Assembly: GCA_944388795.1 (NCBI GenBank)
Contig: CALXKD010000001.1
Location: 16,084-80,083, forward strand
Reading direction: 5' to 3'
From: an uncultured Clostridia bacterium
GTDB taxonomy: Bacteria > Bacillota > Clostridia > TANB77 > CAG-508
Length of the DNA stretch: 64,000 nucleotides
The notes beneath the pieces are model-generated. The model was not told the origin of the DNA. It was given only the letters and a program-made list of their open reading frames with translations, and searched no databases. Of this stretch, positions 63,416 to 63,801 are shown piece after piece; positions within the stretch are counted from its first letter, which is position 1, and each line of letters begins with the position of its first letter. The translations under genes and the position numbers were made by a program.

Positions 63416-63446
63416 TAGAAATAATTATTATGGTCGAATGTGGCCA

Positions 63447-63596
63447 TTATTCCAAAAAGCGCGGCCAGAGATTTTTTCTACGTGGCTTCGTAGTCTTTTC
63501 ACTGCGCCACAGACTATCTGAAGCAAACGTAGATGTCAACATAGAATTATGGCATCGCCTCGACGCATCATAATTCATTTTATGTGAGCATCTCAT
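63447..63596 (-). CDS. Unannotated small ORF (49 aa, basic, Cys/His/Trp-containing) with a near-perfect SD AAAGGAGGTGA, inside a GC-rich (~45%) island
   Basis: MRCSHKMNYDASRRCHNSMLTSTFASDSLWRSEKTTKPRRKNLWPRFLE. Promoter TTGCAA-N17-TATTAT at ~63706-63740 (-). Two leader hairpins. Shares the bidirectional terminator. Below the 60-aa cut-off of the ORF track. Confidence 0.4.
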   Translation of the reverse strand: MRCSHKMNYDASRRCHNSMLTSTFASDSLWRSEKTTKPRRKNLWPRFLE

Positions 63597-63801
63597 AGTT
63601 TCACCTCCTTTTAAAGGTGAAAAAATCTGTTACCAGATTCGCCACACCATACCCTAAAAAAACAAGATATGGCTAAGGTTACATAGGCAAAATATACCTA
63701 TGCAGATATAATAACATAGAAATCTCTGAGTTGCAAGTGTTTTTATATTAAATTCATTATTTAGAGATGAGTAGTAACACATAAAATATTCAAAAATATA
63801 T

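What the first reader, a model, noticed from the sequence alone, without database searches (positions are those of the whole stretch)
63416..63745. Compact GC-rich transcription unit missed by the ORF track: promoter, hairpin-rich leader, strong SD and a 49-aa basic Cys/His peptide
A segment of about 45% GC lies between convergent genes (the ftsZ-like gene and the end-of-window membrane gene). On the minus strand there is a near-consensus promoter (TTGCAA-N17-TATTAT), a leader with a perfect 6-bp palindrome (CATAGG-N9-CCTATG) and a second hairpin plus U-run (GCGAATCTG-GTAA-CAGATTTTTT) that abuts a near-perfect SD (AAAGGAGGTGA). An ORF follows (63596 to 63447) encoding MRCSHKMNYDASRRCHNSMLTSTFASDSLWRSEKTTKPRRKNLWPRFLE. 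It uses codons rare for the host (GCG, TCG, AGG, CGA). Transcription would end at the bidirectional terminator at 63368-63415. The hairpin-U-run immediately before the SD resembles an attenuator or protein-binding leader. The peptide has a CxH-N9-CH arrangement that could bind metal. Alternatively, the region may be a structured sRNA with a fortuitous ORF.
Basis: seen in the sequence. Interest (0 to 1): 0.6.

Follow-up and report, generated by a model that had tools for sequence, protein, structure and literature searches.

The report
Folded small RNA carrying 49-codon ORF
Between two ordinary genes of an uncultured gut Clostridia bacterium lies a real, self-contained, tightly folded small RNA of about 330 bases that carries a 49-codon reading frame; it occurs in only a few closely related species, matches nothing known, and sequence alone cannot show whether the peptide is made.

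Summary
GC is 42% in the core and 37% over the stated span, against 29% for the window.

The predicted ~333-nt transcript folds far better than shuffles (-129.5 kcal/mol, z = -8.9). Its fold is conserved in relatives, with 6 compensatory pairs against 0-1 in shifted controls.

It has no Rfam hit and no phage or plasmid match. The peptide has no homologue and gene callers never called it.

The unit is accessory. Most related species have only a short terminator-bearing spacer here. Four have the unit, one keeps a remnant without the ORF body, and one lineage has a second tandem unit with the same promoter and leader but a different 59-codon ORF.

Coding evidence is mixed:
- **For:** an SD, ATG and ORF this long arise in 0.3% of shuffles. 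The ORF has no indels while its flanks have several. The last codons change only silently.
- **Against:** dN/dS is 0.83, codon usage is more atypical than any host-gene segment of equal length in the window, and strain SNPs change the protein but keep base pairs.

Best reading: a lineage-specific, structured small-protein mRNA or dual-function sRNA. A purely non-coding sRNA is a strong rival. The attenuator idea is not supported. Interest is modest.

The parts
63708..63736 (-). Sigma-70-type promoter-like site: TTGCAA, N17, TATTAT, with TG upstream of the -10 box. The inferred transcription start is near 63703-63701.
   Evidence: Consensus scan, 9 of 12 matches with TG. The site is conserved in all relatives that carry the unit. 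One lineage has TCGCAA at the -35 box.
63680..63704 (-). H1: a hairpin at the predicted 5' end (core CATAGGT / GCCTATG, 8-10 pairs).
   Evidence: MFE and consensus folds. It is shared with the second tandem unit of L027/L091, which carries a different ORF. One lineage has deleted its 5' arm.
63646..63673 (-). H2: GCCATATCTTG / TAGGGTATGGT, 11 pairs with a U-rich loop. It contains G-U pairs, so it is specific to the minus strand.
   Evidence: Two pairs show compensatory double changes: U-A to C-G, and C-G to U-A. It is part of leader model R1, which scores 88-103 bits in relatives.
63623..63640 (-). H3: GAATCTG-GTAA-CAGATTT followed by a U-run.
   Evidence: Present in the window lineage only. 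It is a 14-nt gap in L027/L091 and is also absent in L013. The terminator scan does not list it.
63599..63622 (-). H4: the SD-sequestering hairpin TTTCACCTTT-AAAA-GGAGGTGAAA. The SD core GGAGG is at 63608-63604.
   Evidence: The hairpin alone folds at -10.3 kcal/mol. The mean probability that GGAGG is unpaired is 0.07-0.21 in four variants. It is conserved in all variants with one mismatch in the L027 type.
63447..63596 (-). 49-codon ORF (MRCSHKMNYDASRRCHNSMLTSTFASDSLWRSEKTTKPRRKNLWPRFLE) plus TAA. In the consensus fold 109 of its 150 nt are base-paired.
   Evidence: ORF list. The frame and length are kept in all variants. dN/dS is 0.83 against L027. Codon usage is atypical. Internal helices are conserved.
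63461..63645 (-). Predicted long-range helix GTGGC (63645-63641) / GCCGC (63465-63461). It encloses H3, H4 and most of the ORF.
   Evidence: Consensus fold helix 3. It has one one-sided change (U-G to U-A) and one pair is broken in L011/L003. Support is weak.
63410..63460 (-). 3' hairpin. It pairs the last ORF codons and the stop codon (63460-63446) with the A-rich tract just before the terminator (63425-63410).
   Evidence: This is the best covariation in the RNA. One pair occurs as C-G, A-U and G-C, and another as A-U, G-U and G-C.
63371..63409 (-). Bidirectional intrinsic terminator shared with the convergent FtsZ-like gene. The stem is 63375-63409, and the minus-strand tail is TTTT.
   Evidence: The scan lists it on the + strand as a 15-pair stem. 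It is conserved in all species, including those without the unit.
63420..63784 (-). Approximate extent of the accessory insert relative to the 'empty' spacer of related species.
   Evidence: Based on my reading of the junction sequences, comparing the window with L012, which has a 95-nt spacer. Most related species have spacers of about 50-130 nt.

Best explanation
The region is an independent, lineage-specific accessory transcription unit on the minus strand. A sigma-70-type promoter would drive a transcript of about 333 nt (roughly 63703 to 63371) that ends at the terminator shared with the FtsZ-like gene.

The RNA is almost fully base-paired, and selection keeps it so. Its elements, in order, are:
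- a 5'-terminal hairpin (H1) and a second leader hairpin (H2);
- a hairpin that pairs the SD with an upstream anti-SD sequence (H4);
- helices that occupy about 73% of the ORF;
- a hairpin that buries the last codons and the stop codon.

I think it is most likely a structured mRNA, or dual-function RNA, for a 49-aa basic Cys/His peptide. On this reading the terminal hairpins stabilise the transcript, and the SD hairpin and ORF helices hold translation low until the fold is opened by processing, temperature or a trans-acting factor.

**Shown:** the sequence features, the excess folding energy, covariation, the patchy distribution and the absence of homologues.

**Inferred:** transcription, translation, restraint of translation, and any cellular role.
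For: **Unit and structure**
- Promoter-like site and terminator are present.
- MFE is -129.5 kcal/mol, z = -8.9. The + strand folds less well, at -103.1 kcal/mol.
- In the consensus structure 97.4% of cells are paired. Six pairs have compensatory changes, against 0-1 in the slid controls and 0 of 500 shuffles.
- Between lineages, 10 of 22 substitutions in the ORF fall in the 27% of positions that are unpaired. Nine of the 12 at paired sites keep the pair.

**Coding**
- An SD of GGAGG, 7 nt before an ATG, followed by an ORF of at least 45 codons, occurs in 0.3% of shuffles.
- The ORF is 49 codons with no indel in every variant. The leader and the 3' region carry several indels in the same alignment.
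- The last codons change only silently across three lineages. Pro is CCG or CCA; Arg is CGC, AGA or CGG; Leu is TTG or TTA; the stop is TAA or TGA. Sequence after the stop diverges with indels.
- The same promoter and H1-H2 leader precedes a different 59-codon ORF with its own SD and terminator in L027/L091. Gene callers call that ORF.

**Accessory nature**
- Most related species have a 13-130 nt spacer at this site. Four have the unit and one has a remnant.
Against: - dN/dS is 0.83 against L027, with substitutions spread 6/7/6 over the three codon positions. The neighbouring FtsZ-like gene shows about 0.04.
- The three single-base differences among close strains (A11V, T23M, S28G) all change the protein. 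Each converts a Watson-Crick pair to G-U.
- Codon usage lies outside the range of any 49-codon chunk of the window's long ORFs.
- The peptide has no homologue in a word-indexed search of 5.8 billion protein clusters or a full HMMER scan of 1.84 billion representatives. It has no Pfam, NCBIfam, PHROG, PADLOC or PDB match.
- It was never called as a gene in the related contigs examined.
- The silent changes at the ORF end are also structure-compensating, so they do not by themselves prove coding constraint.
- Predicted SD occlusion is not diagnostic. Five of 15 real GGAGG-led genes in the window are predicted to be equally occluded.
- Only two diverged lineages exist, so every comparative test has low power.
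Confidence: 0.45

Rival explanations
1. It is a purely non-coding structured sRNA. The RNA fold is the functional product, and the SD-like sequence is simply one arm of a hairpin. The ORF stays open only because the sequence is young and constrained at the RNA level.
For: - The fold is strong and conserved, with covariation.
- Substitutions avoid paired sites or preserve pairing, while freely changing amino acids.
- The first 80 nt of the ORF are about 96% identical between lineages whose FtsZ-like genes are about 91% identical.
- Codon usage is outside the range of the window's long ORFs.
- There is no protein homologue.
- GC-rich intergenic blocks in AT-rich genomes are enriched for structured ncRNAs (PMC6429828).
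- The L013 remnant keeps the promoter, leader, SD hairpin, 3' hairpin and terminator although the ORF body is deleted.
Against: - A canonical SD, correctly spaced ATG and ORF of at least 45 codons arise in 0.3% of shuffles.
- The ORF has no indel while both flanks have indels.
- The Arg codon switch CGC to AGA needs a first-position change that breaks a predicted pair yet keeps the amino acid.
- The sister unit uses the same leader for a different ORF that gene callers do call.
- There is no Rfam match, and no target is known.
Confidence: 0.3
2. It is a type-I-toxin-like 'locked' mRNA. On this reading it is a selfish or stress-responsive small toxin gene whose full-length mRNA is translationally inert because the SD is sequestered and the 5' and 3' regions pair. 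Processing would activate it, and an undetected antisense or trans RNA would counteract it.
For: - The ORF is small, the SD is sequestered by a nearby anti-SD, and a predicted 5'-3' long-range helix is present. These are strategies described for type I toxin mRNAs (PMC6733600).
- The distribution is patchy and a decayed remnant exists at an insertion hot spot.
- The promoter-like site is strong.
Against: - The peptide is basic and polar with no hydrophobic segment, unlike nearly all type I toxins (from the sequence and my own knowledge).
- No convincing antisense promoter or terminator lies opposite the ORF or leader. The + strand also folds less well.
- The long-range helix has only weak support.
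- There is no match to any PADLOC, Pfam or NCBIfam model.
Confidence: 0.1
3. It is a non-functional, decaying remnant of horizontally acquired DNA. It happens to fold well and to retain an open frame.
For: - GC content and codon usage are foreign to the host.
- Presence is patchy, with partial deletions. L013 has lost the ORF body, and the L092 group has lost one arm of H1 and carries a -35 mutation.
- It has no homologues anywhere.
Against: - Compensatory base-pair changes and loop-biased substitution indicate ongoing selection on the fold.
- In L016 the unit is 98.5% identical to the window, while the adjacent FtsZ-like gene is 93% identical with pS of 0.28.
- No donor sequence was found.
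Confidence: 0.12
4. It is a cis-regulatory leader or attenuator that controls a downstream gene.
For: A hairpin followed by a U-run lies directly upstream of the SD.
Against: - That hairpin is absent in the L027/L091 and L013 versions.
- The terminator scan does not report it.
- The transcript ends at a terminator directly after the ORF, and the next gene is on the opposite strand.
- No riboswitch or leader family matched.
Confidence: 0.03

Closest known systems
Dual-function sRNAs of Firmicutes, for example Bacillus subtilis SR1, which encodes the 39-aa SR1P (PMC3526287, PMC5013986)
   Same: - A short, independently transcribed, structured RNA with its own promoter and terminator.
- It contains an SD-led ORF of fewer than 50 codons for a Cys-containing cytosolic peptide.
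- Both the RNA and the ORF show some conservation.
   Different: - There is no sequence or Rfam similarity.
- No base-pairing target is known.
- The peptide is basic rather than acidic.
- Protein-level conservation is weak.
- It is confined to a few species of one uncultured Clostridia clade instead of being conserved across a family.
Type I toxin mRNAs with sequestered ribosome-binding sites (hok, tisB, aapA3; PMC6733600, PMC7708055)
   Same: - A highly folded small mRNA in which the SD is trapped by a nearby anti-SD.
- A predicted helix joins the 5' region to the 3' part of the ORF.
- It is an accessory, patchily distributed locus with decayed copies.
   Different: - The peptide has no hydrophobic helix.
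- No antitoxin RNA was detected.
- Toxicity is untested.
- There is no homology to any known toxin family.
Orphan structured ncRNA candidates found as long GC-rich intergenic regions in AT-rich genomes (PMC6429828, PMC8632094, PMC11109978)
   Same: - A block of 42% GC in a 29% GC genome.
- Strong predicted folding and covariation.
- No annotation.
   Different: - It contains a canonical SD and ORF.
- Too few diverged representatives exist (two lineages) to define a motif class by those pipelines' standards.

Membership tests
Any Rfam 15 RNA family | Covariance-model score at or above the family's gathering threshold | tested here: not met
   There were no hits at gathering thresholds over the whole window. 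In the sensitive scan of 63250-63900, the hits inside the unit's body scored 6-16 bits against thresholds of 36-229. The higher-scoring hits (up to 25.6 bits) sit on the terminator.
Type I toxin-antitoxin (toxin mRNA) | Small ORF (under about 60 codons) with an SD on a discrete transcript | tested here: met
   A 49-codon ORF with GGAGG 7 nt upstream, flanked by a promoter-like site and a terminator. Transcription itself is inferred.
Type I toxin-antitoxin (toxin mRNA) | Ribosome-binding site occluded by an anti-SD or by 5'-3' long-distance pairing (PMC6733600) | tested here: inconclusive
   The SD hairpin is conserved, and the probability that GGAGG is unpaired is 0.07-0.21. However, 5 of 15 real genes in the window are predicted to be equally occluded. 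The long-range helix has weak support.
Type I toxin-antitoxin (toxin mRNA) | Hydrophobic, membrane-active toxin peptide | tested here: not met
   The peptide is rich in Arg, Lys and Ser and has no hydrophobic stretch. The AlphaFold model shows a single low-confidence helix at residues 9-26.
Type I toxin-antitoxin (toxin mRNA) | Cognate antisense or divergent antitoxin RNA | tested here: inconclusive
   No + strand promoter-like site lies between the terminator and 63684. The only + strand terminator-like site inside the unit is a weak 5-pair stem at 63478-63493. The + strand folds less well. Consensus scans cannot exclude an antitoxin RNA.
Type I toxin-antitoxin (toxin mRNA) | Growth inhibition when the ORF is expressed | not testable with these tools
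   This needs an experiment.
Dual-function sRNA (SR1-like) | Conserved RNA secondary structure | tested here: met
   97.4% of cells are paired and 6 pairs are compensatory, against 0-1 in the slid controls.
Dual-function sRNA (SR1-like) | ORF conserved at the amino-acid level and translated | tested here: inconclusive
   The frame and length are always kept, and the C-terminal codons change only silently. Overall dN/dS is 0.83. Translation cannot be tested here.
Dual-function sRNA (SR1-like) | Base-pairing regulation of a target mRNA | not tested
   No targeted search for complementary mRNAs was run. A blastn-short of the unit against the window returned only exact matches of 11-16 nt at E >= 0.076 outside the unit. 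The rest of the genome is not available.
Transcription attenuator or regulatory leader | Conserved terminator/antiterminator upstream of a regulated gene on the same strand | tested here: not met
   H3 is absent in the L027/L091 and L013 versions. No gene lies downstream on that strand.
Small zinc-binding protein | Conserved Cys/His ligand set matching a known metal-binding fold | tested here: inconclusive
   C3, H5, C15 and H16 are invariant, but that whole segment is nearly invariant at the DNA level. There is no Pfam, NCBIfam or PDB match. Model pLDDT is 59.5.

The most novel reading that the evidence does not exclude
The unit and its tandem sister in L027/L091 could represent a previously undescribed class of accessory small-gene cassettes in gut Clostridia. 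In this reading a shared promoter and two-hairpin leader drives interchangeable small ORFs. This cassette would be a translationally locked mRNA for a soluble, basic, Cys/His nucleic-acid-binding or metal-binding toxin-like peptide. That would make it a non-membrane counterpart of type I toxins, or a new dual-function sRNA.
Probability: 0.1. Interest if true: 0.6.

Novelty: new member of a known kind. Interest (0 to 1): 0.33.

Why it matters
**If the peptide is made.** This would be an unannotated small protein from an uncultured gut Clostridia clade, encoded on an mRNA where RNA structure and coding sequence are selected together. It would illustrate how gene callers miss small genes with atypical composition.

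**If the peptide is not made.** This would be a new orphan structured sRNA.

**In either case.**
- The locus shows that the spacer between the MatE-family gene and the FtsZ-like gene is a hot spot. Different small cassettes come and go there among close relatives.
- The shared leader on two different ORFs is a concrete handle for finding a common regulator.

The scope is narrow. Only a few species and two sequence lineages carry the unit, and nothing links it to a known pathway, so the wider impact is modest.

Tried and rejected
**Searches that found nothing**
- Rfam at gathering thresholds and at E <= 10 gave nothing relevant. ARAGORN found no tRNA or tmRNA.
- The peptide had no hit in Pfam, NCBIfam, PHROGs, PADLOC or PDB.
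- The word-indexed search of 5.8 billion protein clusters found no homologue.
- The full HMMER scan of 1.84 billion representatives gave one hit, P0003. It is a 2166-aa T/Q/S-rich repeat protein matched in 22 stretches. I rejected it as a compositional match.
- An exact look-up showed the ORF has never been called as a gene.

**DNA searches**
- The leader pattern found nothing in JGI metagenome contigs or in viral contigs.
- A conserved 21-mer gave one unrelated 63%-GC contig.
- blastn against phages and plasmids found nothing.

**Leader covariance model (R1)**
- It found no further copies in 39 related loci.
- In the window it gave one weak hit at 51259-51332 (23 bits), which I judged probably chance.

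**Attempts to widen the comparison**
- Extra look-ups through FtsZ-like fragments and the 59-aa sister ORF returned only the same two lineages.

**Ideas considered and dropped**
- A housekeeping RNA (6S, SRP, RNase P, tmRNA) is excluded by the absence of model hits and by the unit's absence from most related species.
- The attenuator idea fails because H3 is not conserved.
- The antisense 47-codon ORF on the + strand is not real. Its start lies in the 3' segment that is replaced in L011.

**Uninformative**
- The AlphaFold model of the peptide had pLDDT 59.5.

Full report
**1. Observation**

- The promoter-like site is TTGCAA (63736-63731), N17, TATTAT (63713-63708), with TG upstream of the -10 box. 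The consensus scan reports it at 9 of 12 matches with the TG flag.
- The CATAGG...CCTATG palindrome is present.
- The GAATCTG-GTAA-CAGATTT hairpin and its U-run are present.
- The SD AAAGGAGGTGA lies 7 nt before the ATG at 63596.
- The ORF is 49 codons, 63596..63447.
- The 15-pair terminator is at 63375-63409.

GC is 42% in the core (63430-63650) and 37% over the stated coordinates. The window as a whole is 28.7%.

The neighbours are a 329-aa FtsZ-like gene on the + strand and the 3' end of a MatE/Polysacc_synt-family gene on the - strand. The unit sits downstream of the MatE-family gene and converges on the FtsZ-like gene.

**2. It is a strongly folded RNA on the minus strand**

- The predicted transcript folds at -129.5 kcal/mol. 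Shuffles give -79.1 +/- 5.7, so z = -8.9.
- The + strand gives -103.1 kcal/mol.
- The minus-strand fold uses several G-U pairs, which would be C-A mismatches on the other strand.

- H2 (63673-63646) is a leader hairpin.
- H4 (63622-63599) pairs the SD with an upstream TCACC anti-SD sequence.

The fold also includes helices covering 109 of the 150 ORF nucleotides. A further hairpin pairs the last codons and stop codon with the A-tract in front of the terminator.

**3. It matches no known RNA or protein**

- Rfam 15 gives nothing at gathering thresholds. At E <= 10, the hits inside the unit's body are weak chance-level scores.
- There is no tRNA or tmRNA.
- The peptide has no Pfam, NCBIfam, PHROG, PADLOC or PDB match.
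- It has no homologue in 5.8 billion protein clusters.
- A full HMMER scan gave one hit, to a T/Q/S-rich repeat protein, which I take to be compositional.
- The ORF is not on record as a called gene. Gene callers leave a gap of about 480 nt here in ten near-identical contigs.
- The DNA has no match in phages, plasmids or viral contigs. In JGI metagenome contigs it gave only one unrelated 21-mer hit.

**4. Comparative picture**

The organism is an uncultured gut Clostridia lineage known only from MAGs. Using the FtsZ-like gene as an anchor, I recovered the locus from 22 related species.

- Most of them have a spacer of only 13-130 nt, essentially just the terminator.
- The unit is present in the window species, L011, L016 and L027.
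- L013 keeps the promoter, leader, SD hairpin, start codon, a 3' hairpin and the terminator. It has lost the ORF body, leaving 6 codons.
- L014 and L023 carry a different + strand ORF of about 98 codons at the same place.
- In the L027/L091 lineage a second unit lies in tandem. It has the same promoter architecture and the same H1-H2 leader, then a different SD, a different 59-codon ORF and its own terminator. Gene callers call this ORF.

A covariance model of the promoter and leader found no further copies in 39 related loci. In the window it gave one weak hit, probably chance.

The unit is therefore an accessory cassette in an insertion or deletion hot spot, not a housekeeping RNA.

**5. Structure is under selection**

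I analysed seven distinct sequences, which represent effectively two diverged lineages plus strain variants.

- In the consensus structure 97.4% of cells are paired.
- Six pairs have changes on both sides. Slid controls show 0-1, and none of 500 shuffles reached the observed count.
- H2 has two compensatory pairs. The 3' hairpin has one pair seen as C-G, A-U and G-C, and another seen as A-U, G-U and G-C.
- Inside the ORF, a C-G pair in the window is C·A in L027. It is restored as U-A in L091 by a change that also converts Ser4 to Leu.
- Of the 22 ORF substitutions between the window and L091, 10 fall in the 27% of positions that are unpaired. Nine of the 12 at paired sites keep pairing.
- In L016 the whole unit is 98.5% identical to the window, although the adjacent FtsZ-like gene is 93% identical with pS of 0.28.

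**6. Is the ORF translated? The evidence is mixed**

*For translation*

- A GGAGG-type SD, an ATG 4-10 nt downstream and an ORF of at least 45 codons arise in only 60 of 20,000 dinucleotide shuffles of the transcript.
- Every variant has exactly 49 codons and no indel. In the same alignment, the leader and the 3' region carry several indels, including a 14-nt one.
- The last codons differ among three lineages only by silent changes. Pro is CCG or CCA; Arg is CGC, AGA or CGG; Leu is TTG or TTA; the stop is TAA or TGA. The sequence diverges with indels right after the stop.
- The sister unit shows that this leader serves an mRNA.

*Against translation*

- dN/dS against L027 is 0.83, with substitutions spread 6/7/6 over the three codon positions. 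The FtsZ-like gene gives about 0.04.
- The three strain-level SNPs are all non-synonymous. Each changes a Watson-Crick pair to G-U.
- Codon usage lies below every 49-codon chunk of the window's long ORFs: -0.45 against 0.48 +/- 0.21, minimum -0.15.
- The silent C-terminal changes are also structure-compensating.

Predicted SD occlusion (probability unpaired 0.07-0.21) is real but not diagnostic. A third of genuine GGAGG-led genes in the window are predicted to be equally occluded.

With only two diverged lineages, no test has much power.

**7. Mechanism**

I commit to a structured small-protein mRNA, or dual-function RNA, with a confidence of about 0.45.

- The 5'-terminal hairpin and the terminal 3' hairpins probably stabilise the transcript. 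That 5'-terminal stem-loops protect Firmicute mRNAs is my own knowledge; I did not test it here.
- H4 and the helices over the start codon and ORF would keep translation low until the fold is opened.

The rivals, with my confidences:

- a pure non-coding sRNA with an incidental ORF (0.30);
- a type-I-toxin-like locked mRNA (0.10);
- a decaying foreign remnant (0.12);

The attenuator idea fails for two reasons. H3 is missing in the other lineages, and no gene lies downstream on that strand.

**8. Comparison with known systems**

The architecture resembles two known kinds of RNA:

- dual-function sRNAs such as SR1/SR1P (PMC3526287, PMC5013986);
- type I toxin mRNAs, with an SD trapped by a nearby anti-SD and 5'-3' pairing (PMC6733600, PMC7708055).

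Membership of either family is not established. There is no homology, the peptide is not hydrophobic, no antitoxin RNA was seen, and no target is known.

It also fits the profile of GC-rich intergenic ncRNA candidates in AT-rich genomes (PMC6429828).

**9. Verdict**

This is a real feature that gene annotation missed, and its RNA structure is demonstrably conserved. It is an orphan restricted to a few species, its function is unknown, and translation is unresolved. I rate it as a new member of a known kind (small structured transcript with a small ORF), with modest interest of 0.33.

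Noticed in passing
L027:4989-5888 (- strand); also L091 and L107-L112: A second tandem unit has the same promoter and H1-H2 leader but a different 59-codon ORF (MLEMLMDDWHKFYW...). 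It has its own SD and terminator. Gene callers sometimes extend it to 95 aa through the leader. Its two known alleles differ by 4 non-synonymous and 0 synonymous changes.
   Followed up: partly
L014:4988-5547, L023:1576-2135, L018:4988-5547: The same FtsZ-like/MatE spacer holds a different cargo in these species. It is a + strand ORF of about 98 codons for a helical protein, with its own extended -10 promoter and hairpin-rich leader. It has only sub-threshold family hits. The spacer looks like a hot spot for small accessory genes.
   Followed up: partly
L013:4988-5290: This is a remnant of the unit. The promoter, leader, SD hairpin and ATG are kept, but the ORF is cut to 6 codons by an internal deletion. 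A perfect 13-bp 3' hairpin and the terminator remain.
   Followed up: partly
L092-L099, L101-L103: Eleven contigs from one sample series carry an 11-nt deletion that removes the 5' arm of H1. They also have a -35 change (TTGCAA to TCGCAA), while the ORF is intact.
   Followed up: no
window 63308-63336 (+): A promoter-like site, TTGCAA-N17-TATAAT (10 of 12 matches), straddles the FtsZ-like stop codon about 40 nt before the terminator. It could give a + strand RNA of about 70 nt that overlaps the 3' end of the unit. A TATAAT at this place also occurs in species without the unit.
   Followed up: no
window 51259-51332 (+): This is a weak hit of leader model R1 (23 bits, rough E about 1e-3). It lies in the AT-rich spacer upstream of the 382-aa gene at 51422 and shows two small hairpins after a -10-like box. 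It is probably chance.
   Followed up: partly
L091, L107-L116 (FtsZ-like gene): In the L027-like lineage and some others, the FtsZ-like gene is called as two pieces (about 220 aa plus 91-100 aa). This suggests a frameshift or a genuine split. In L027 the tblastn match is one base longer than in the other loci.
   Followed up: no
window 63785-63791 and 63410-63426 (- strand): The insert is bounded by GAATATT on the left and AATTATT-TCTAAAAAGC on the right. The empty site in L012 reads GAATATT-CTCTAAAAAC. This short imperfect direct repeat at the borders could mediate deletion.
   Followed up: no
window 60104-62139 (-); L001:3768-5802: A radical-SAM/HHH gene (432 aa) is paired with a DUF4130 gene (252 aa) upstream of the FtsZ-like gene. 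In L001 and L107 the radical-SAM gene is called as two pieces (270 + 162 aa).
   Followed up: no
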